DNA of 64,000 nt from Podospora anserina (taxonomy: Eukaryota), in contig CM030338.1 of the NCBI GenBank assembly GCA_017654855.1, positions 3,224,001 to 3,288,000 on the forward strand, in the 5' to 3' direction. Positions 13,507-46,094 of the stretch are shown one piece after another. The notes below the pieces were generated by a model. It was given only the letters and a program-made list of their open reading frames with translations. It had not been told where the DNA came from and searched no databases. A program made the translations under genes and the position numbers. Within the stretch, counting starts at the first letter, position 1; the number at the start of each line of letters is the position of its first letter.

Positions 13507-15436
13507 TTACAGTAATAGTACTTCCATCAACAGATGAAAGTGCCAAAAACCCCCGAATTTGGGTTTCCAACACAATTCCCTATCCCGAAAGCGTGAGTGT
13601 AACTCGTTGATGAGCTGAAATCTGGACAATCCGCTTAGAATGTCCTTCTTGAGAAGAAGCCAGGGGACCACAGCCACATGGAGGCACGATAGTTGGTAGG
13701 GCCAATCCAGTCCTACACCGACCAAAGGCTTTCTCTCAACTTTAAGCTGGTGGCCGGTATGCGACGTTATAACCTGCCACTTTTGAATCAAATCCGGGCT
13801 CAGCACGAGGTCCTTTTCGGCTGGCCAAGTGCTAGACCACGTTACCATCGGTCCATCCCTCTCGTTGAAGGTGTAGCGAAAAATACAGGCATGTCCCTTT
13901 TCTTCGGTCCACTCCCCGCTATTCCCAATCTCCATTATCTCCAACTTTGGCATCCAGCTGACCGCTTGCATGGGTAGTTCAAGTGACCTGTTCATTGTGC
14001 TATTGAGTTTCTCGGGATGAAGTTCGGCTGTGGTCAGCGCGAGGCGACGGAGATTGGGCCACTGAGGGGACAGTTCTGGTCCATACCGAAGTTTAGGGGG
14101 CTTTTCAAAGAAAGCCTCCGCTTCTATATATCAAGGACCGGCCAGAACTTCAAGTTCGCGGCTTGCTTTGTCGAGGACGCGGCCCAGGGCTAATCTTGGT
14201 GGCCTTGTGAAACTTTCATGTCGTCGGCCAAAGTCTTTGAATATACTTAGCCGCCTAAGCATACTCGGGAAACCAGTCTTAACAAGCCTTTTGAGCTCTG
14301 AAAATAACACCGGATTAGTTTCGGCCTTTTCACATGTATAATTAATGTAAAAGAAGAAGAAGAAGAAGAAGAAGAAGAAGAAGATCCCCAAGATAAGCCC
14401 GAGAGTGGCCCTGCCCAATGTGAGAAGACAAAAGAAAAAAGGCTGGAATGATTTGATACAACACAACATACCTTTTTGATAATTGGAAGATAATGACGTT
14501 AACGAAAGCTTGAACTCACTCCGCATGTCCTCCAAACAGACAAAACTTTCTGTGATGACTTTACTGACGACATTCGGAGATAGTTTTCGGTGACACTGCC
14601 GCCGAAAAGCGAGGCCAGTCACGATCTCGACCCTTGGGAATGTCTTGCGTTTGCGACGGGTTCCATGACGGGGAGCAATCCTGTAATTGAGGTCTAACAA
14701 GTTTCCACACAGCCGTAGTGTCGCCCCATCAGGACAATCCGAGTATCTCAGCGCACCGTTACGAATGCAATGTGTCTCATCAGTGTTATGCTTGATGGAA
14801 AACTGGCTGTCGACAAAACCGAACCAGTCGCCAAATCGTTTCTTGAGCCGCTTCCCTGGGGGAAACGGATTGTAGGGATGACATTCCCGCAGAGAAAATA
14901 GGTGCTGAAACCAGTGTTGGGAATCACTTGGTGACTGTATACTAATCTCCAAACTCATGCCTTCGGTACCTGGTCGTGGTCGAGCGCATCTTTCCTCTCC
15001 CACCGCGTTAGGATATCCAGCAATAACAGCAGAGCTCTGGTTATGACGGCATTGTTGGTGGCTACGGTGATAGCACCCTCTGGCAAGGAGCACGAACTGC
15101 AATCATATGTTGGGTAACAGAATTCGAAGCCAAAGTCCACGAACATAGTTCAGCCTGTAGACATTTCGGCCAGCCATAATGCAATGGTGCATGCCGGCTC
15201 TTTTGAGGCTACGGCAAGGCCCAGGTTGTTTGTGATCGAAAGGGAGGGAGGGGGCTTGCTCTGCCGTATGCAGGTTCAAAAGCTTTCCTTTTCTCTCCGC
15301 CCTTGGGCTGCGATGTCTTGCAGATGGGAAAAACGCATAGCCAAGGGATGAAACGAAACAGACCACCTTGAAGGGAGGGCAACTGATCGGGACCAGCCAA
15401 TCGGCATCGACACGCAGAAAAGCTTTGAATCCTCAT
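13507..15436 (-). pseudogene. DUF6546-like protein, frameshifted
   Basis: Motifs LWLRILLP/TYDCSSC, MSLEISIQSPSDSQHWF, VTGLAFRRQCHR and MPKLEIMEIGN...ACIFRY lie in different frames. There are at least two frameshifts near 15110 and 14970. Confidence 0.7.
14351..14382. repeat. (AAG)n microsatellite within a probable intron of the DUF6546-like pseudogene
   Basis: Direct sequence; gives the poly-F artefact in the ORF track. Confidence 0.9.
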
Positions 15437-22246: not shown

Positions 22247-23997
22247 TCACTGCAAAGAAGCCCACGTTCGTTGTACTGTTTCCGCATAGATCTGAAATGC
22301 TGAGAGTAAATGGATTATATCCGACCCCAACTCAAGCTCAGTTATAATGGCCGTATTGTTGCGCCAGGCATGACATCCTTCATCAAGTGGAAGGTCATCC
22401 TCGCCTATGAAGGGCGTCTTTCTCCTTGAAGCTGTAGCGAAAGACGCAGGCCTGCGACGTCTCAACCGTCCAGCCCGAGCAGTTCCATATTCCATCATCT
22501 CCAGTTTTGGCATTCTGATGGCAGCGTGGGCGGCCCAAAGGAGCAGCTGATTCTTTCTGATGTGTGAGCTTTCGGGGTGAAGGACCCTTGTTGTCAAAGC
22601 AAGACGCTTGAGGTTCGACCACTGAGGCTCCCACCCCACAAACCCATCTTCTATGCGAAATTCATAACGGTGGTGGTGAAAAAGATCAACGTCGATTGGC
22701 GCAAAGAAATCCTCGGCGTCCGAATCCCACGAACTCGCCAAAGCTTCGAGGTCGTAACTCCCGACATCCAACGCAGCTCCGAAAATGTTAACTGCGTCTG
22801 GAGGCTTATGGAAGCAATCCCACCCGTTAATCAAGAGGTTATAATCCACATAAAAAGAAAGCTTGATGACGCGGGTTTGTTGGGGCCTTCTGAAGACTTG
22901 AAAAAGGACGAGGTCGCACAGCTCTCTGAAGTGCCTTTTGAATTGCGTTAGTTGACATAACTTTTAAAGCTGTGGGAGGGACCAAAGTAGGTAGAGGTAA
23001 CATACCGTAAATTCTGCTCGTGTCATCATAAACTCCGTCCACCAGATTGAGACACCAAAACTCGAGCCTGAGGCGCTGCATACAAACAAAGCTCTCCCCA
23101 AGCAGCCTATAACGAACATATGGGTTCACTGCTCGATGAAACCGCCGGCGGAAGGTAAGTCCTGTGACAATCTCACACCGAGGGAGTCTTGATCGCCTTG
23201 CGTCGGCCACCGCGCAACGGGCTGTTCCTAAAGTTCAAATACAACGGCTCTGTACCCAAAAGTCGCGATCTAGCCTCAGCAGAGACGTGTCTGAGCATCA
23301 GAGCTCCATGCTGATGATGATGAAAGTTGTCGTTGAGGTGTCTGATCTCGAAGTCTTCGTAGTATTTCATGAAAAAGTACTTAAACCGCCTCCGGAAAGC
23401 CCATTGACCAGGTTGCGGCTTGTAGGGGTACGTATCCTTCAAGTAAAACATATGCTTCCCAGACACGCTGCGCGTCACTTACCGAGTGTGCGCTGAGCTC
23501 CAAGGTCATGCCTTTGTTGGGTCCTGGTGTTCCACGAGTGCGTCTTTTCTCTTCCACCGAGACAGAATATCCAGTAATTGAATGAGAGCCCAAGTGAATG
23601 TCGCGTTGTTGTTTTCCTGGGTAGTTGAGTCTTCGTCCTTCTGGCAGACATCGCATCCCTAAGTTGGCAGGAGCACACGCAACCAGAGGTAGCGAGTGCA
23701 GCCCAATCTATGAATGCGTCGGCCAGATACAAGCCGGCCAAAGTCGGGGAGGTCGTGCTGTGAGAGCGCCAGGTGGCGGAAGTTGATGGCTTCAAAGAAG
23801 TGTTGAAACTCTCTGTTAACAGCAGCGTATTTAGAACGATCCTTTGCAGGCTTGATGATTTGCCAGCCGGGTTATTGGATGGATCCCACTGCTATCGGTT
23901 TCGATGGGGTGATTTAGTGAAGCGATTCCAGCACAAGTTGACGTATTTCTGCTGGTAACCGGGCCCAGTAGGGCCATACGCATATGGAGGAGGACAT
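22247..23997 (-). pseudogene. DUF6546-like protein, second copy, with stops and frameshifts
   Basis: WARLPAEIRQLVLE (F-box-like), MTLELSAHSVSD, IVTGLTFRRRFHR and WSNLKRLALTTRVLHP...AAIRMPKLEMME are spread over several frames; clearly paralogous to 13507-15436. Confidence 0.72.
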
Positions 23998-33048: not shown

Positions 33049-34713
33049 AGCAACTGCAGACGCCCGAAGGCAGGTCGGTCTTTGGCGAATAGCGTCTCGG
33101 TGTAACGTCCCAAAGATGGAATCATCTTGAGGCGAGAGACTTTCTCGCAGCAAAGGTTGTAAGTGGCCGAATCTGGACAAAATATCCAAGAGGCGCAGAA
33201 GGGCTTCCCTTCCCTTCCCTTCCCTTCACCAGATGTCAAATCACGCAGATCCTCCAGATGGCGCTAACCCGCACACAGCCCTACACTAGACTCCATCAGG
33301 CAAAGCTGGGGGAAAAGCCCATGCATTGACCACTTCTTACAACAATTAAACATAGCCCCTTGCCAGAGCATCAATCACGATTCCACGAAGCTTATGGCTG
33401 CAGAACGCCATGCAGGGACCGGCAGATGTCAGTTCTGGCCTTCCTATTCTGTCGAGTATTTCGAACACAACCCCAGGCAGAGGCTTAACACCATGCATCT
33501 GTAGCTCAAGTTATTACGAGCGCGCAAATTAGGGGATGGATGCGGCATAAGATGGATGGAGATTATACTCATGGGGCAGTATATGGGATTCCCGACAGTC
33601 AGGAGAGTTGTCGGGCCGCTGTGCTATTGGTACGCTGTGGAACTTTCTCTACCACTGCCGGCGCTTGTGAGGAAGTGGCACTTGTGGCTGTGTTTCAATA
33701 TTTTGTCGACACATTGGCGTCTAGCATCTTGAATCACACTGCGGCATTGTGGCTTCTTGTAGTCATGTGTCGCATATGTCGGCAGTCAGAGTCGAGTGTT
33801 TTGAAGCCAGTAAGTAGACTGCATGTAGAACAGTGGTTGATGAGTGTAGGATGAAGATCAGTGATCAATCAGTGTTTGCGTGGGATCCAATGATGTTCTT
33901 GGCATTATCGGGCCGAGCCCGGATCCCAGATCGGTTCGGGACCCGTTTCCCCCACTTCGGATGAACCCCACTACCCACCTAACCCCTTCTGTCCAATGAG
34001 ACAATTTGGATTGACTTCCTGTAGTGCACAGTAAAGTACCACAACCACCACAGCTCTCGATTGTCCAACATGAACTCATAGGCCAGGATACGCGAAAATT
34101 GCGATATCAAAAATAAGGCTGATCGTCACACGAATCCATATTCAAGATCTTGTTCTACAACCTCTTGGTCGGGGCGGCTTACCCCGCCCGAGCTTATCCT
34201 TGAGTTCCCGGGGCTTTGAGGCTCCTAGGCACACCGCAGACAAGGCTGCGGGCTATACCTACCAACCACAACCAACAACGCCCATCATATGAGCACCGGC
34301 AGTGGGACGTTGGATCTTTGAATCAAAACACCTGAAATCTTCATCGGTTCACAGTAGCTACCTTACGTTTGGGGGATACCCTCCAAGCTGGGCACTTGGG
34401 CAAAATGCTGCATTCATGTTTGTCATCGACCTACCCATGAGCCTTCTTGCTGATGGACATCAAATACTCCGTACACTGGTTGTCACGCGTCCGGTCACGC
34501 AGCCAAAGAGCTACCATCATCTCCGCCCGATTGGCCAAGCCAGCAACCCGCATCAATATTATCGCAGGCCGACGAATCAGCCTGGTAGGGTGAGGCAGCA
34601 ACAAGGCCCCCTCAGGCGTTACACCGATCTTTCCACGGACGTCATTCATGAAAACCTCGTTTACTCCTGAAGGCTTCTGAATTTACTTTCAAATACAAAC
34701 ATTGCGGAGAACT

Positions 34714-36966
34714 ATGAAGAAGGTAATGAATATAATGCAGAGAAAGGGACAGCGGTGCAGTCCACGAGTGGAAGAAGTTGAGGGTAGTAGGCCGATTTCT
34801 ACGTCCCCTACAACCCTTTGCTCAGCTTGCACCAGCCTCATATATCCTCACCCTATGGACCTTAGGGTGAAGCGATATGGGACGTTTAGATTATGCCACC
34901 ATGATCAGCTGTCCTTTCGAGACGCCGTGCAAAACGGCTGCGCGATCTGCTGCATTGTCATGCAAGACGTCAGACTTCGTGGGCTCAGAAAGGGGAAACA
35001 AAAGTCAGGGGTAGAACCAGACTGCCAGTTTCCTGACACTACATCATCTACAATCACCAGTGGACCAGAAGATTGGATCAAACATGGCAAGCACATTTTC
35101 ATTGCTACATACCGGAACGAGCATGAATACACCTTCACCAGCCTCACTTTGGTCCCAGACTTTGGTAAGACCCCGTTCGTTACCAGACACTACTCATCGG
35201 AAAGCTTGTCAGTATTCTGAGTTCATCAAACTACACACAGATAATTTGCGGGCTCATCACATGCACCGCGATATATCGCGGGACAATGATACATCAGCGG
35301 GGACAAGTCCAACCATGCGCCTGGCCATTCATTGGCTTAGACATTGTCAAACATCTCATAAGGAATGCGCATCAACACTGGAACCCTCGGGTCGCAATAC
35401 AGCTAACCTTCCTTCGCGGCTTCTGGATATCGGACCCGAAGCGACTGGAAGCTTGAGACTCGTGTTAACCGGAGAGGACGGGGTGGACGCCCGAGCCCAG
35501 TACATTACTCTGAGCTACATGTGGGGGTAAAGATTCAGCGGGTCATGCTTTTATCTTCAACCTTAGACTCCTTCCGCCAGGGACTGCCGATCAGTGAGCT
35601 TCCTCGAACATTTCAGGATCTGATTGTGCTTGCCCGGGCATTCGGCGTTCGTTACATGTGGATCGATGCCCTCTGCATCATCCAGGACTCTACTGAAGAC
35701 TGGGAGCACGAAGGTGCCGCCATGTGGAAGGTTTACGCGAATTCGCTTTGTACAATTGCAGCTACCGCCTCTATAAGTCCAGAAGATGGCTTGTTTCGGA
35801 AGAGAGACCCCGTACCATTCACTCGACAGATCAAGGCTCCTAGCGGACATCCATGTCGCGACAATCATGATTATCATGTTTTCGATCCAGGCTTCGCAGA
35901 AAGGTGTATTTCCAGTGGGCCATTACAGTCAAGAGGCTGGGCATTCCAGGAGCGAATCATGTCGCCACGGGTTCTTCATTTTTCAGACAGCCAGATGCTG
36001 TGGGAATGTCGCAAAGAGACCCAGTGCGAAGCAGCTCCTTTCTATACGACTCTTCTGTCCCAGAAGAGCACAAAAGGGTCAATCCAACATCAAGGAATGA
36101 GGAACAGACTGGAAGTGACTGCGGACCACGACGCGGAATCGTCTGCCTCCTTATCTTCGTCGACACCTGCGAGAAACCATGTTGGGAAAGAATATGATGT
36201 GTTTCTGGATGGTTGGAAATCAGTTGTCGCGATCTACTCAAACTGTAGCTTGACCTATGACGAGGACAAGCTACCTGCTTTGGCGGGCCTAGCCAAGGCA
36301 TTTCTACGAGACAAACCAGCTCGCACGTATCTTGCAGGCATGTGGAGAGAGAATCTTGAAGGGCAGTTAGGCTGGAAGGTGAACACTCCGGGAAACAGAC
36401 TCTCCACTCCTTACCGCGCACCTTCGTGGTTCTGGGCATCGGTGACCAGTGCTATTGAACCGTCCTTATATTATAAGCTGGAGAAGCTCGGCCACTGTTT
36501 CTATACCATCCCGAGGATTGAAAGCGTCAGCTGTGTAACTAAAGGACCACAGTATTTCGGAAGGGTCTTGAGAGCACACCTTGAGGTCTCCGGTTACCTG
36601 GTTTTCCCAATTGTTCATAGTATTGACGGTGAAAAGGAACCCCAGACCTGCCAGTTGCGGATTGAACACACGTTTATGTCTGCGTGCCTGTGCTGGGATA
36701 CTGTGGATGTCCGTGCTAGTGTCGGGTTCACAATTACATGTCTACCCCTTGGTATAGAGTATGATACTCGTATTATTACTTGTATTATACTGGAGCAGGT
36801 TGGGGGGAATTCACCCATCAAGTATCAGCGAGTTGGTTTATTGAAGGTTACTTTCGGTCATGATCGCAGTGACCAGCTTTGGAGGTTCGGAATAGAAAAG
36901 GGGATAAAAGAAAATCGGTCTGTTGCCAAGTATAACAAGGAGTTTTCTGTCATACATATTGTATGA
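34714..36966 (+). pseudogene. HET-domain (PF06985-type) heterokaryon incompatibility protein with a 1-bp frameshift at ~35525; intron 35165-35240
   Basis: HWLRHC..H, LPSRLLDIG and YITLSYMWG* continue in another frame as ELPRTFQD, RYMWIDALCIIQDS..DW..E...MWKVYANSLCTIAA, LQSRGWAFQERIMSPRVLHF, DKLPALAGLA and YRAPSWFWAS. Confidence 0.8.
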
Positions 36967-38751: not shown

Positions 38752-39780
38752 ATGCCTGTATGCCCCCTTACAATAAATTACCAATTAGACCACCTAACCA
38801 ACTCTTACCAGCTAATAATCCTCACCGGCCTCCCCACCTCAGGCAAATCCCACCGAGCCGCCCAGCTACAAACCTACCTCGCCGAGCGCATCGCCTCCTC
38901 CAACCCCCCATCCCCCTACCGCCTCCACCTCATCTCAGACGAAACCCAGTCCGTCTCCCGCACCGTCTACGACCTCGACCCCTCCTCCCTCCCCGCCCAC
39001 GTCCGCAGCGCAAACGCCTCCGAAAAGGACGCCCGCGCCTCCATCTACGCCGCCGTCAAGCGAGTCCTATCCCCAAAAGATATCGTCATCCTCGATGGCA
39101 TGAATTACATCAAGGGGTGGCGGTATCAGCTCCATTGTGAAGCAAAAAACCTCGCTACACCGTCGGTGATATTACAGATAGGATGCCCTGTCGACAAGGC
39201 GAGGGAGATTAATGAGGAGAGGTTACGGACTGAGGGTGGGGTGGAAGGTTACTCAACTGGGAACTGGGACAATCTGGTGTTTCGGTATGAGGAGCCGAAT
39301 CCCATGACGAGGTGGGACTCGCCGTTGTTTACGGTTATTTGGGATGATGATGAGGAGCAGGCGAGGAGGGTGTACGAGCAGATATGGGATAGTGTTGCTG
39401 GGGAGGGGGCCAAGAAGAAGGTTAGACCCAATAAGAGTACCGTGCAGAGGGATAAGGATCCCGGGGGGGATTATTTGTATGTGTTGGAGAAGGAGACGCA
39501 GGATATTGTGAAGAGAATATTGGAGAAGCAAAATGAGGCGGGGGAGGGGGGGACGGTGAGGTTGCCGAAGGTGAATGGGGGGGATGATGGGGGCGAGGAG
39601 TTGGTGTTGGAGTTGCCCGGGAGGAAGCTGGGGTTGGCGCAGTTGCAGAGGTATAGGAGGGCGTTTGTGGGGTTGAATAGGGGTGGGATTGGACTGGAGG
39701 AGGTCGGGAAGTTGGCGGCGGGGAGGTTGAGGGAGAGTTTTGTGGGGTATCTGAATGATGCTTTTGAGAAGGATGGGTGA
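38752..39780 (+). CDS. KTI12: Elongator-associated protein Kti12 (P-loop); intron 38758-38811
   Basis: Spliced MP|LIILTGLPTSGKS, IVILDGMNYIKGWRYQLHCEAK and NLVFRYEEPNPMTRWDSPLF. Confidence 0.93.
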   Translation: MPVCPLTINYQLDHLTNSYQLIILTGLPTSGKSHRAAQLQTYLAERIASSNPPSPYRLHLISDETQSVSRTVYDLDPSSLPAHVRSANASEKDARASIYAAVKRVLSPKDIVILDGMNYIKGWRYQLHCEAKNLATPSVILQIGCPVDKAREINEERLRTEGGVEGYSTGNWDNLVFRYEEPNPMTRWDSPLFTVIWDDDEEQARRVYEQIWDSVAGEGAKKKVRPNKSTVQRDKDPGGDYLYVLEKETQDIVKRILEKQNEAGEGGTVRLPKVNGGDDGGEELVLELPGRKLGLAQLQRYRRAFVGLNRGGIGLEEVGKLAAGRLRESFVGYLNDAFEKDG

Positions 39781-40571
39781 GGTGAGACGCGAGGTCATGG
39801 TGGTGTGTCGAGTTGACCTGCGTGGCCGACAGTGTGTGTTTCGCTTGTTCAATCCGAAAATAAACGATCAAACAACCAGTTCGGTATTGCAGCCGCGCGC
39901 ACAGCAATCGATCAAGACGAAGGGCTGTGATGGGACCTGGAGACCTGCTTTGTCCACAGTACAAGTTTCTTTCACCGAGCTTTCTGAAGGCTTTTGGCCC
40001 CCCCCATATTCAGCCTTTGACCACAGTATGAGCATTATCCAGATTTGCTGTCCCGACAGTCTGGTACTAGCCGCCGTCGACACGCATCAAACATTGGATG
40101 GTGCCATGGAGGTGGGACTAGTACCCATCTGGGCGGTTGTTGGTTTTACTTCCCGGGCTCTGATTGGCTGGATCCATTCACGACATCTCCATTTATTGTG
40201 TAACCTCTCCTGTTATCATGTCTCAACATGGCCGATGGGCAAGCGCGGTCATATTCAATGAGATTATTTTTGGGGTTGAGTCCACAGTCAGGTGGTGGGC
40301 CACAAGCAGGGAGGTCGATGTAGTGGCGATCAGGCTGGGGGTTGGGTAGAGTCGGCCACCACTCGCTTGAGGAGCTGTCCAAGTAAGCAAGGAGACGAAA
40401 AGTATACAAACCACGTTGTTTGCCGCGCTATGGAGTCATCATCATCATCAGCACCATCTTCTCTTGTCTCTTTCCTACCTAACCTATCAATAATAGGTAA
40501 CTCGAGCATACTGTGTATGCCCTCTCTGTCATAATCACCAACATAGTATCTCTTTTCAGAAGAACCTAAAC

Positions 40572-41408
40572 ATGCCCACCAAAACCTCCCAACACGCCTT
40601 CGCCGGCTCGGAACGCTGGGTCGTCCCCCGCTACTCCTCCAAACCAGGCACCCTCATCCGACTCGGGTCTGTCCTCACCGACCCAGAAGACTTGGAATCC
40701 TCCCTCAACCTCGACAGCATCCCCCCCATCCCCCCCCACCTCCTCCGCGACGCCACCCCAGAGGTGCGAATGTCTGTCCAGACTGAGCTCAGCAAATCAG
40801 ACTCCACCCTTGCCAAAGCCGCCCCCGCACTGGAGGGCATCCTCACCCTCGGCGGCGGGGTGGAAGCCTCCCGCTCCCAGGGGGTGAGCTCGTCTCTTAA
40901 CATCTCGGGAACTGTCAAGGCGACTGTTTTTCGGGCGGATAAATCTTACATGGATGTGCTGCTTAAGGATAAAAATGTGATTTCTTATGCGAAGAGGGGG
41001 TTGGGAAAGCCGATGTTTGTTGTTGTTGGGGTGGCTACTGCTGGGAGGGTGGAGATGAAAGAGACGAGGCATGTGACGAGGAAGGCTGGGGTGAGTGGGA
41101 AGGTGGGGGTGGAGGTGATTGGGGAGGGGGAGGTAGGGTTGGAGAGGGAGAGGAGCGATAAGAGTTGTAATGAGGTGAGGGGGGAGGGCGGGTTGGATTT
41201 TGCTTATAGGGTGAGGGAGTTTGGTTACTCGAGGGTGAGGGGGACGGTGAAGGATAAGGGGGATTGGACGGGGAAGGTCCTCTTCGCTGGGGGAAAGGGG
41301 CCGGTGGTGGAGAAGGGGGGTGAGGTGGTGCCGGTGTTTAAGGAGTTTAAGGAGGGCGAGGTTAAACTGAGGGCGACGGGGAGTTTTGATGTTGCTGCCA
41401 AGGCGTGA
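40572..41408 (+). CDS. het-Q1: Fungal gasdermin (RCD-1 family), HET-Q1-type pore-forming cell-death protein, 278 aa
   Basis: Fungal gasdermin motifs [22 protein letters not shown] and DFAYRVREF, plus two alternating-polarity beta-hairpin stretches. The 278-aa length and Phe at position 238 (KVLF|AG) agree with my recollection of P. anserina HET-Q1. Confidence 0.9.
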
Positions 41409-41683
41409 GGAAGGTTATAATCGATGTGTGATGGTAGTGGTGACGGGTTGGATGACGGCTTAATTTCTTGTGCTTTGAGGAGTACGGTGTTTTGGATATG
41501 TAGCTGGAATACATGATGGTTCGAATTACAATCACTGGAGGATTCTGTCAACCAAGAGTCCAAGTTGATGTTCGGTAAATTCTTCACAAAGTAATCAGCG
41601 CCTTGGAATTCATCCCATCTACCTCCTTTTACATTCATTTGTTCATTACATAACAGCTACCATCCCGATTTCCATTGTGAAAA

Positions 41684-43486
41684 TTAAAGCATATACTTGA
41701 AATCGGGGTTCAGATCCTATCCATGATTGTCAGTATACCGTCTCGTCGATCAACGGTGTTTACGAGAGCAACTCACCCCAAGCTCCGCCTTTTCCTGCTC
41801 CGTCATGCCCTCAGGGAGAGTCTGGTTCGCCTTCTTCCTGTTTTCAGCCATGATGGATACCGCGTAAATGATACACGACAGAGCGCTCAGGCAGATGAAG
41901 GACACGCAGATGATGTACCCCTTTCTGAAGTCGCCTCCAACAAACGAGTATGTAGCGATGATGCCGCCAATGTTGCCGAAACCTATCCCATGTTCAGTCT
42001 CTTGTTTCCAAATGCAATATCCCAGGAAAACTCACCAATCTGCCACGCACTCCCCACAGCCCTCCGGTGATGCCCACCCAAGTTCATATTAAACCAACAA
42101 ACCTGAATCGGCATCGCCGAGTACATGCCCATGCAAATCAGCACCAAAGCCGCATACTGCACCGGCAAATTATCGTGCACATTCAGCAGAATCGCAAACC
42201 CGCTGATCGAGATACAGATCGGGAGAACCGTGAACAAGAACCTGTGCTTCAGCCAGTCTGACGCCGTGGCGATGACCATGGCGAAGACAAACGCCACTGC
42301 CCAGGGAGGCACAGAGTGAAGCTGGGTCTGGATCTTATCGTAGCCGTAACTCTGGACAATGGTGGGACTGAAGTACGCGTACGAGTAGGCGGGGACAATA
42401 ATGCCAAAGTACATGAAGCCGCCGAGCCAGACCTTGTAGTCGGACATGACCTTGCCGACGTCCTTGAGGGTGATGCTGCGCTCGGCGGCGGAGTGGCCTT
42501 GGTCAGCGTGGAGACGGGCTTTGATGTAGTCTCTTTCGTCGTCGCGGAGCCATTTCTGTTGGTATTGTTAGCTTCCTTTTCCCATCATTTGGATATTTTT
42601 GTTCCGGTGGTTGAAGATTTTCAACCAAAACCCCCTTTCGCCCCCCTGAACAACGGAAAAAAAGAGATCACATACCGCCTCCTCGACAAATCCCGGAAAA
42701 GTAAACAAAAAGATCGCCCCAATCACCACCGTCGCCGCCCCCTCAATCAAGAAAATCCACCTCCACCCCCTATAACCCCTCATATAATCCATACTCCCCA
42801 ACCCGCTCGCCAACAGCCCCCCGAACGCCCCCGCCAAACTCGTGCTCGAGAAAAACAAACTAAACCTCTTCTGTGCCTCCTCTCGTCTGTACCACATCCC
42901 CAGCAAATAAAAACACCCAGGAAACATGCCGCACTCAAACAACCCGAGCAAGAACCTCGTCGTCAAAATCCCGGCGTAGTTCTGCACAAGGCCTTGCATC
43001 ATGGTGATGAACCCGAAGCCGATACAGCACCCGCTGAGCCATATCCTCGGTGAGATTTTCTTCAGGAGGATATTGGAGGGGATTTCAAAGAGGATGTAAG
43101 GGACGAAGAAGATTGTGAGTGCGGTGTTGAATTGTGTTCCCGACAGGCCCAGGTCGGTTTCGAGGCCGAAGGCGCGGGCGTTGGCGATGTTGACGCGGTC
43201 GAGGAAGGCCATGAGGTAGAGGATGATGACGAAGGGGACGAGGTGGAGGTCGATTTTGGTTGTCAGCCTGCGGGGGGTGGTGTGAGAGGGACAGATGACG
43301 GGGGCGGGAGCGGTGGGGGTGATGCCTAGAGAGGAGGAGGAGGAGGAGCCGGTGTGGTGACGGTGAGCGGCCTTTTCTTCATCTTGGTGTGGTGGCCCTG
43401 GTGGAGGGACTGACGAGGTGTTAGTGAGGTTATCGTGAGGAACACGGTGGGTGAGAGGTAAGTGTCACCTTGAGGTTGAGACGCCA
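41684..43486 (-). CDS. MFS transporter, anion:cation symporter (Dal5/Tna1-like), multi-exon
   Basis: KIDLHLVP..LYLMAFLDRVNIANA, FFVPYILFEIPSN, RFLLGLFECGMFPG and GWRWIFLIEG; C-terminal ELG|DLNPDFKYML after a final intron. Confidence 0.9.
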
Positions 43487-46094
43487 TTTTGAACTTTATC
43501 GTCAATGACGATAGAATGAGCACCTCACAGTCGAGTCAAGCGGACTTGATTGAACAGACTAAGTCCTAAACTCCAACCAACGGCGAACCGTTGACTTGCA
43601 CCGACCGAACAGAAACACAAAAAAGGTGACGCAAAAACCAAAACCATGCGAGCAAGCATTCTGTGCGAGGGTCACACACCCGACTTTATATACCACGCCG
43701 ATCTCTCCTCCTCCTCCCAGTACCCGGTCACACACACACACACACACACACGCACATTCCCAAACCCACAACGTTACTCTTAACCTTTTCCCTCCTCCTA
43801 CCTTCGGCGGACTAACCCGAGGTCTTGTCGCCCCCCTTCCTTCCCTGTCAGTCAATGATCGACAGGCGCGCGTGCAAATCCAGAATCTGTCTTGGACCCG
43901 CAACAAACTCCATTTCCCCGGATATTTTTGTTGAACTCCAAACTGCCGCAGGGAAAAGTAAGCTCACTTACATCATCCACCTTCCTGTTTCGTCAACGCT
44001 TTGGGCATGACACATGTGCGGTCTCGCAGCAGCACTTCCTAATATTGACACTGAAAGTGGATATTATCTGACTTGTCTGTTGGGTATTCTTTTCCATGTC
44101 CCCTGGAGAGAGATCTAGATTACGTCTTCATGATCTTCCCTTTCTTGTGCCCCCCCCAATCACCACGTGATTAGCTCCCGTGGATAACCATCTCGATCCT
44201 AATGATGAAACTCATCAGCTCACCTGACCAACTTTGCTCGAGATAAATACTCAATGCATCTATATACCCAAAACAGCATCTTTATACACAACCTTCATCC
44301 AACCCCCCCCCCTCCCCACACCTAGCTCCACCAAATATAACCCACATAGAAATCAAATAGCCTCCCCAATTCCACTCTTCTAATGCCAACACCATTCAAA
44401 CAGCCCTACAGACCAACAAGCCCGGCCCATTTCTTAGTCTCCTCACTAGTTTGGCCGTTCTCGGTCTGGGCTTCACGGACATAACAATTCCGGCATTTTT
44501 TGCTCACCGGCGGTCAACATCGCCGAGCATCGGACGTTGTGGAGAGAGGTTGAAGTGTCACGGGATTCGGCCGGCAGCCGACCTAGCGGCAAGGAAGGTT
44601 TTTGCCATGTGCTCTTGTTCAGTAGAAAAGGTGGCCAGCATCGGTGAGCAACGCGGATCAGTTCCGTCCATATCTGACCGGCGTACTCCGGGTTTTTTTG
44701 TCCAAATATATATATATATATATATAAAATATAAACCCCCAAAAAAATCGCTGTTTTTCTCGCCTCCTCCAAAAACCTCCAACCACTAAACCATGATGAT
44801 GTAATGTAACTCTGCCGAAAAGCTGGGGGGCAAAAGAATCCGATTGTTTAGCACAGCAAGTGTGTACCCCGTAAGCCCATTGCAGAACACTCTCCCCTCA
44901 CGGTGCTACCGAACCGTTGATTACTGAGCCAACAATAATAAACGATTACCTTCATTTCTTCGACATAAACGCAACTTGTCCAACTGCCATCTCATCAAAA
45001 AAAAACATCGTGGCTTGTTCCCACTTTCCTTCAGCAATGCAGGGGTTCCCCGCCCTCTGCCCCTCCCCATTTTCTGACAGGCTTGTTTTTAAGCCCGTTC
45101 CAACTGCGGGGAAAAGAACACTGTCCCCAAAATGCCAAGACGTCATCAGTGTTTGTTTCCCCTCACTTTTATAAACCAGCCGTTGAAGGTCTCATCACAG
45201 ATCAAGAAGAAAAAAGTGTTGATATGAGACTCCATTTGTATTTTACACGTCCCTCTGCCATTCCCTATAGAGCAACCCTCTCATTTGCTATCTTTGTCCA
45301 TTGCTACACACACACACACACACATACACTCACTCCCTCTCCCCACCCACCCAGTTTTATACCCCCCCCCCCCAAACCCCCTTTTAACCCCCCTCTCATA
45401 AAACGAAAAAGACAATTCATCCATCATCATATTCTTTCACCATGATGACAACAACAACAACAACAACAAGAAAAAAATTCGTAAAATATAATCATAAACC
45501 TCTTCAAAAAAAGAAAAAAAACCATGTTCAAAAGGGGTGTGTATGTGTGTTGTCGTGTGTAAAATAAAAATAAAAAAGGGTAAATAACAACAACAACAGC
45601 AACAACAACAACACCAAACAATCATAATAAGCCAACACACTCCTGGGTATCCTGGATCGCAAAACCGTTGCCGCACCAAGACACCTCGCTATCTTCCCAC
45701 CCCCCAATCCCCATCCCCATCCCCGTCAACGAATCCTCCCCCCCACCACACAACACACACAGCTCCACCAAATCTACCACCAAAAGCCAACTGTTTATAC
45801 CACACACACCCCCCGTTCTTCCAACACTTTGTATATAAAACCACCCTCCAATTTTCCCTCTTTACACCACAAATACAACACACACACACACACACACAAA
45901 AAAAAAAAAGTTGTAATAAACAAACAAGAAACCCACCCGGACAAAGACCCAATTCATAAACAATCGTTTGCCGTCATCATCAGAAATGAACCCCATCCCG
46001 ACCAACTAGGTAAGCCGTAACCGAGCCCGTTTGTGTGTGGAGTTGCGCAGATCCCCCGTACCCTTCTTCTCCACCCTTTCTTTAATCATTGTTG

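What the first reader, a model, noticed from the sequence alone, without database searches (positions are those of the whole stretch)
39781..41683. Gasdermin without its protease: candidate idiomorphic slot between KTI12 and the MFS gene
Seen: the ~1.9-kb interval holds only the gasdermin, and I found no S8, caspase-like or CHAT protease ORF in the 64 kb. Established: fungal gasdermins often sit beside their activating protease, whereas at het-Q the two genes are alternative idiomorphs. Inference: other isolates should carry a non-homologous protease gene between the same flanks, under balancing selection and possibly as a trans-species polymorphism.
Basis: inference. Interest (0 to 1): 0.7.

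Follow-up and report, generated by a model that had tools for sequence, protein, structure and literature searches.

The report
Known Podospora het-Q1 gasdermin locus
This is the already published het-Q self/non-self locus of the dung fungus Podospora anserina, where some strains carry a pore-forming cell-death protein and others carry, in the same place, the protease that switches it on.

Summary
The ORF at 40572-41408 (+) is HET-Q1 (278 aa; 230 of 232 residues identical to PDB 9UV9). All 6 het-Q1 primers of Clave et al. 2022 match exactly, and the deletion arms measure 1055 and 894 bp as in the paper. No S8, CHAT or caspase gene lies in the window. het-Q2 strains carry a 366-aa S8 protease here that cleaves HET-Q1 after F238. 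My count from a published table gives Q1:Q2 = 51:55 among 106 Wageningen strains.

Trans-species polymorphism is still open. Q1 sits in the same slot in three sister species and in Cercophora samala (from accession order). One P. pauciseta strain is typed Q2. Two sister-species references have one annotated gene fewer between the flanks. I could not retrieve any het-Q2 sequence, and no second species is shown to carry both idiomorphs. Verdict: already known, low interest, with one testable evolutionary lead.

The parts
38752..39780 (+). KTI12 gene, the shared left flank (taken to be Pa_7_10770 from its position); a 54-nt GT..AG intron at 38758-38811 is inferred
   Evidence: PF08433 E 1.2e-68; the paper's upstream deletion primer matches at 39516-39539; intron read from the sequence
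40031..40057 (+). Approximate left edge of the idiomorphic segment: only the 3' 12 nt of the published het-Q2 forward primer match here
   Evidence: Exact 12-nt match at 40046-40057, the only one in the window; chance in a 1.9-kb interval about 2e-4 (primer). The edge itself is inferred.
40572..41408 (+). het-Q1 (Pa_7_10775), fungal gasdermin HET-Q1, 278 aa, single exon
   Evidence: 98-99% identical to records named HET-Q1 in sister species
41280..41288 (+). Codons for L237-F238-A239, the HET-Q2 cleavage site (cut after F238, releasing a 40-aa inhibitory tail)
   Evidence: Residues present; function from PMC8851545 and PMC13475620 (passages)
41661..41683 (-). Reverse primer site shared by the published het-Q1 and het-Q2 amplicons; the right edge of the idiomorph lies at or left of this site
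   Evidence: Exact 23-nt match; the same primer is listed for both genes in the methods
41684..43487 (-). MFS transporter gene (Pa_7_10780), the shared right flank, multi-exon; start codon inferred
   Evidence: PF07690 on two exons; its cluster holds PODANS_7_10780 / CDP32599.1; the downstream deletion primer matches at 42281-42300

Best explanation
The interval is the het-Q1 idiomorph of the het-Q vegetative-incompatibility locus of Podospora anserina. This genome makes full-length HET-Q1, which is kept inactive by its 40-aa C-terminal tail, and has no het-Q2. Other strains carry at the same place het-Q2, a 366-aa S8 subtilisin without a propeptide. When hyphae of the two types fuse, HET-Q2 cuts HET-Q1 after F238. 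The N-terminal part assembles into 20-subunit membrane pores and the fusion cell dies (barrage). Rare-allele advantage keeps both idiomorphs near 50%. Shown here: identity of the locus, the intact cleavage site, absence of a protease in cis, and the allele counts. Shown in papers only: het-Q2, cleavage, the pore and the barrage. Inferred: negative frequency-dependent selection as the cause of the balance, and origin from a split gasdermin/protease cluster (the authors' own proposal).
For: 230 of 232 residues identical to 9UV9. 278 aa, as published. 6 of 6 het-Q1-side primers match exactly; arm lengths are 1055 and 894 bp (paper: 1055 and 894) and the clone is 1848 bp (paper: 1.85 kb). The span from the het-Q2 primer site to the shared primer is about 1.65 kb here, against 2.45 kb for the het-Q2 amplicon, which fits the published 1.6 vs 2.4 kb. 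The neighbouring MFS gene is Pa_7_10780. No protease in the window. Mechanism: PMC8851545, parts 1-6 of 8 read; pore: PMC13475620 abstract and passages. Q1 in 51 and Q2 in 55 of 106 Wageningen strains (binomial p = 0.77 against 1:1), with both present in all 8 sampling years.
Against: The protein differs from the 9UV9 chain at 2 positions (H56/N, V168/A). 9UV9 equals the P. pseudopauciseta record over residues 7-238, so the cryo-EM and pore data may concern a slightly different allele. I retrieved no het-Q2 sequence: 0 of 196 S8 proteins had D35/H105/S266, and the primer scan was empty. All 20 runs that hold the stretch hold 88% or more of its sampled words, and the 3 same-species runs I laid carry the Q1 haplotype; the ranking favours Q1 carriers, so this says nothing about Q2. 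Equal frequencies in one population fit balancing selection but do not prove it.
Confidence: 0.97

Rival explanations
1. The genome belongs to a sister species of the P. anserina complex in which the slot is fixed for a het-Q1 ortholog and has no allorecognition role.
For: The seven species are less than 2% divergent in genes (PMC10936905, passages), so primers alone do not separate them well. The protein differs from 9UV9 at 2 sites.
Against: 6 of 6 primers match exactly, including intergenic ones, and both arm lengths are identical to the base. The named records of P. comata, P. pseudocomata and P. pseudopauciseta differ from it at 5, 3 and 2 residues. Runs under one species label from several studies match the interval almost letter for letter.
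Confidence: 0.02
2. An orphan gasdermin left from a decayed two-gene cluster, activated in trans by another S8 or CHAT protease of the same genome for defence against other organisms, with allorecognition a side use. This could hold alongside the main reading.
For: 20% of 1,884 fungal gasdermins have no protease neighbour. The genome has 27 S8 and 3 CHAT matches. The GKVLF|A cleavage site and the pore-interface residues are kept in 8 of 8 members of the ortholog clade, down to 82% identity.
Against: HET-Q1 stays uncut in delta-het-Q extracts, and the deletion strain grows and is fertile like wild type. The paralogs have separate protease specificities. Conservation of the site is equally explained by a long-lived Q1/Q2 system.
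Confidence: 0.15
3. The neighbouring HET-domain gene (about 34.7-37.0 kb) is the real partner, so the locus is a pseudo-allelic two-gene system like het-B or het-Z.
For: A HET domain (PF06985, E 1.8e-22) is encoded 3.6 kb upstream.
Against: Deletion and re-introduction of Pa_7_10775 alone remove and restore the barrage, and Q1 plus Q2 kill yeast and 293T cells without other Podospora genes.
Confidence: 0.01

Closest known systems
het-Q1/het-Q2 of Podospora anserina (Clave et al. 2022, PMC8851545; pore structure PDB 9UV9, PMC13475620)
   Same: The same locus, flanks, protein length, cleavage site and primer sites.
   Different: Two residues (56, 168) differ from the 9UV9 chain; nothing else was found to differ.
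Clustered fungal gasdermin / HET-Q2-like protease pairs (for example Q1-5 with an S8 gene, Q1-6 with TPR-CHAT)
   Same: Same protein family and activation by proteolysis. One such pair was seen in this genome: gasdermin C6:1551246-1551869 (-) beside S8 C6:1549913-1550584 (+).
   Different: At het-Q there is no protease in cis; the partner is a single-domain protease at the same position in other strains.
rcd-1 of Neurospora crassa (PDB 8JYZ)
   Same: A gasdermin-based allorecognition locus and a remote homolog (E 3e-07).
   Different: Two gasdermin alleles activate each other without cleavage and lack the inhibitory tail (passages).
het-B, het-s and het-Z of Podospora (PMC10890737, PMC13449251, passages)
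   Same: Balanced incompatibility loci in the same species complex.
   Different: For these, polymorphism shared across species is documented. For het-Q I found no such analysis in searches or in the term look-ups.

Membership tests
het-Q locus, het-Q1 idiomorph | Encodes the 278-aa gasdermin HET-Q1 | tested here: met
   278 aa; 230 of 232 identical to 9UV9
het-Q locus, het-Q1 idiomorph | Lies between Pa_7_10770 and Pa_7_10780 and carries the published primer sites | tested here: met
   6 of 6 primers exact, arms 1055 and 894 bp; the MFS cluster holds PODANS_7_10780
het-Q locus, het-Q1 idiomorph | L237-F238 cleavage site followed by an inhibitory tail of about 5 kDa | tested here: met
   GKVLF|AG at 234-240 and a 40-aa tail
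het-Q locus, het-Q1 idiomorph | No cognate protease gene in cis | tested here: met
het-Q locus, het-Q1 idiomorph | Other strains carry het-Q2 (366-aa S8) in the same slot | tested here: inconclusive
   Published and consistent with the partial het-Q2 primer match and the shared reverse primer; no het-Q2 sequence retrieved here
het-Q locus, het-Q1 idiomorph | Barrage with a het-Q2 tester; cleavage and pore formation | not testable with these tools
   Shown in PMC8851545 and PMC13475620
het locus under balancing selection | Intermediate allele frequencies that are stable over time | tested here: met
   51:55 of 106; both alleles in 8 of 8 sampling years (counted by hand)
Trans-species polymorphism | Both idiomorphs segregate in at least two species | tested here: inconclusive
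   Q1 in 3 sister species and Q2 in 1 P. pauciseta strain; both forms are shown only in P. anserina
Trans-species polymorphism | Sharing is ancestral rather than introgressed (normal interspecies divergence within each allele class) | tested here: inconclusive
   Sister-species Q1 proteins differ by 2-5 residues, so they are not recent copies; no Q2 sequence is available, and P. pauciseta exchanges DNA with P. anserina (passages)
Clustered gasdermin/protease two-gene unit | S8 or CHAT gene within 10 kb | tested here: not met
   None in 64 kb

The most novel reading that the evidence does not exclude
The het-Q slot is far older than P. anserina and has more than two states. A lone gasdermin with an unchanged cleavage site has sat next to the MFS gene since before the split from Cercophora samala (89% identical; adjacent accessions on one contig), and probably from Triangularia verruculosa and Apiosordaria backusii. 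The gasdermin/protease idiomorphy would then be a polymorphism kept across genera. The P. pseudoanserina and P. bellae-mahoneyi references, each with one annotated gene fewer in the slot, would carry either an unannotated het-Q2 or a third, empty or decayed haplotype that is compatible with both.
Probability: 0.35. Interest if true: 0.4.

Novelty: already known. Interest (0 to 1): 0.12.

Why it matters
As biology the locus matters: it was the case that showed fungal gasdermins are switched on by proteolysis. That is in print, with a pore structure, so this finding adds nothing there. What remains is evolutionary. If a gasdermin and its protease have alternated in one slot across species or genera, that would date the split of an immune gene pair into an allorecognition system and test whether an escape (null) haplotype can persist. 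The public Podospora assemblies make this an easy test.

Tried and rejected
Retrieving HET-Q2. A search with the S8 domain of the genome's own clustered protease gave 113 hits. A search with a 33-sequence S8 alignment gave 936 hits, of which the best 120 were listed. None was named HET-Q2, and 0 of the 196 S8 proteins stored had D35/H105/S266; one (P0067, 374 aa) had similar spacing and was not taken for HET-Q2. The het-Q2 primer found 0 matches in metagenome contigs, and the HET-Q1 alignment found 0 confirmed loci among 161 candidates; records close to this genome may be left out of those collections.

Sequencing runs. The 20 holders had 0.88-1.00 of the words, so no Q2-like half-match was listed. 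Of 24 runs, 4 were laid. X8, X14 and X22 cover the whole Q1 haplotype, and X8 may be a source of this DNA. X21 (organism B, 0.04 of the words) aligns over DUF7702 and KTI12, but its contig ends at 39524, so it says nothing about the slot.

An apparently RIP-mutated het-Q1 copy (P0009) was rejected: full C-to-T conversion of the sense strand explains 171 of 171 residues, against 138 for the native frame, which points to a bisulfite library. No transposon-like repeats mark the interval edges, and the RIP indices are like the rest of the window. The Q1-6 paralog was not found within the two 10-kb stretches around C7 CHAT hits; this was not pursued. No structure prediction was run because the structure is solved. 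Earlier scan notes: 0 by place, 0 by sequence, and 5 by words that concern other loci.

Full report
Observation. KTI12 ends at 39780 (+) and an MFS gene ends at 41684 (-), leaving 1903 bp. The interval holds one gene, a single-exon ORF of 278 aa at 40572-41408 (+). Pfam does not recognise it, but it matches the PDB chain 9UV9 'fGSDM/HET-Q1 pores' at 230 of 232 residues and Neurospora RCD-1-2 at E 3e-07. No protease lies in the window. None of 124 frames of 130 aa or more hit a protease family, and a HET-Q2-like S8 profile hit no window frame of 40 aa or more. None of the 27 S8, 3 CHAT and 4 C14 matches in the genome falls here. The interval is single-copy, has no Rfam match and has no telling repeats.

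Identity. The locus is het-Q of Podospora anserina. Clave et al. 2022 (PMC8851545; parts 1-6 of 8 of the text read, Dataset S1 and S2 rows searched, SI Appendix not readable) describe het-Q1 = Pa_7_10775 as a 278-aa gasdermin between Pa_7_10770 and Pa_7_10780, replaced in het-Q2 strains by a 366-aa S8 protease, with dissimilar segments of 1.6 and 2.4 kb. Their methods list primers. All 6 from the het-Q1 haplotype match the window exactly. The deletion arms measure 1055 and 894 bp, as published, and the het-Q1 clone measures 1848 bp against 1.85 kb. The het-Q2 forward primer matches only by its 3' 12 nt, at 40046-40057, and the reverse primer shared by both clones sits at 41661-41683. The MFS gene clusters with PODANS_7_10780 / CDP32599.1, one accession after the paper's CDP32598.1. 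I name the species, not the strain.

Mechanism. From the papers: full-length HET-Q1 is monomeric and harmless. HET-Q2 (catalytic D35, H105, S266; no propeptide) removes about 5 kDa after F238. L237A and F238A block cleavage and death, HET-Q1(1-238) is toxic alone, and the pair kills yeast and 293T cells. The cleaved protein forms 20-subunit pores (PMC13475620; abstract, passages and one methods section). Here, the cleavage site and the interface residues R15, W16, Y21, D40, E42, R59 and R213 are intact. Keeping toxin and activator in different individuals makes cytoplasmic mixing the trigger. The authors propose an origin from a split gasdermin/protease cluster. One intact cluster of that kind is visible elsewhere in this genome (L002).

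Balancing selection. Supplementary Table 1 of PMC9262711 (passages of the text; table read in full) types het-Q in 106 Wageningen strains. My hand count is 51 Q1 and 55 Q2 (p = 0.77 against 1:1), with both alleles present in each of 8 sampling years from 1991 to 2016. Six further P. anserina strains are 2 Q1 and 4 Q2. It is consistent with negative frequency-dependent selection but does not prove it.

Beyond P. anserina. Proteins 98-99% identical to HET-Q1 are on record for P. comata, P. pseudocomata and P. pseudopauciseta, and orthologs for Cercophora samala (89%), Triangularia verruculosa (82%) and Apiosordaria backusii (81-82%). These 8 sequences form one clade (100/100) on a long branch in a tree of 22 selected homologs, and all keep GKVLF|A (fragments, P0009 and most weaker hits were left out).

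I could not see these loci as DNA, but accession order is informative. The gasdermin directly precedes the MFS gene in P. comata (VBB87077/078), P. pseudopauciseta (KAK4662119/120), P. pseudocomata (KAK4650804/805) and C. samala (KAK0668672/673, contigs of equal length). It shares a contig length with the MFS gene in T. verruculosa and A. backusii, where the numbers are 22 and 16 apart. In P. pseudoanserina (KAK4668813 to 815) and P. bellae-mahoneyi (KAK4639712 to 714) only one protein lies between DUF7702 and the MFS gene, against two in P. comata and P. pseudopauciseta, and neither species is named in the HET-Q1 cluster. T. setosa has the MFS and SEC63 genes but no named gasdermin hit. One P. 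pauciseta strain is typed Q2.

So non-Q1 states probably exist in other species. But accession arithmetic is indirect: annotation gaps or fused gene models could explain it, and a record identical to the window's protein would be hidden. No second species is shown to carry both idiomorphs, and P. pauciseta is known to exchange DNA with P. anserina. I found no analysis of het-Q across species in searches or in term look-ups of PMC12881547, PMC13449251, PMC10197012, PMC10890737 (passages) and the bioRxiv version of the 2022 paper. C. samala, Triangularia and Apiosordaria are absent from the paper's Dataset S1. Subscription journals and the unread supplements may hold such an analysis. PMC8915998 (part 1 of 2) and PMC10936905 (passages) gave background only; other papers were seen only as search listings.

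Results against or short of the reading. No het-Q2 sequence was retrieved. The sequencing runs listed as holders all look like Q1 carriers, which the ranking favours. The window's protein differs from 9UV9 at residues 56 and 168, where 9UV9 equals the P. pseudopauciseta record, although that paper names P. anserina as the source. Either these sites vary within P. anserina or the construct came from a sister-species record; I could not tell which.

Verdict. Interest 0.12. The one open lead, an old and possibly three-state polymorphism across species or genera, has a probability of about 0.35 and would merit about 0.4.

Noticed in passing
window 34681-36966 (+): A HET-domain gene (PF06985, E 1.8e-22) lies 3.6 kb upstream of het-Q1. 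Its cluster names records from P. pseudoanserina and P. pseudopauciseta only. In P. bellae-mahoneyi one protein fewer lies between the cyclophilin and DUF7702 than in P. pseudopauciseta, so this gene or its neighbour may vary in presence.
   Followed up: partly
window 40737-40739 and 41073-41075 (+): Residues H56 and V168 differ from PDB 9UV9, whose 232 residues equal the P. pseudopauciseta HET-Q1 record although the paper names P. anserina.
   Followed up: partly
protein P0009 (relative of window 40572-41408): A database protein that looks like a RIP-mutated het-Q1 is fully explained (171 of 171 residues) by complete C-to-T conversion, so it is most likely a bisulfite-library artefact.
   Followed up: yes
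L002:57-1064 (+) and L002:1333-2283 (-): A convergent S8 protease / gasdermin pair; the protease matches the published Q2-like partner CAP64796.1 of Q1-5. P. comata's second gasdermin is listed without a protease neighbour in Dataset S1.
   Followed up: partly
window 13510-14130 (-) and 22250-22963 (-): Two DUF6546 genes about 8 kb apart, in a stretch with several ORFs lacking Pfam hits.
   Followed up: no
G000:C7:2726848-2731845 (L003): A caspase-like C14 match and a CHAT match lie about 3.4 kb apart on opposite strands; my gasdermin profile found no gasdermin in that 10-kb stretch.
   Followed up: partly
window 38758-38811 (+): The inferred first intron of KTI12 is 54 nt, in frame and free of stops, so the unspliced frame also reads open.
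   Followed up: no
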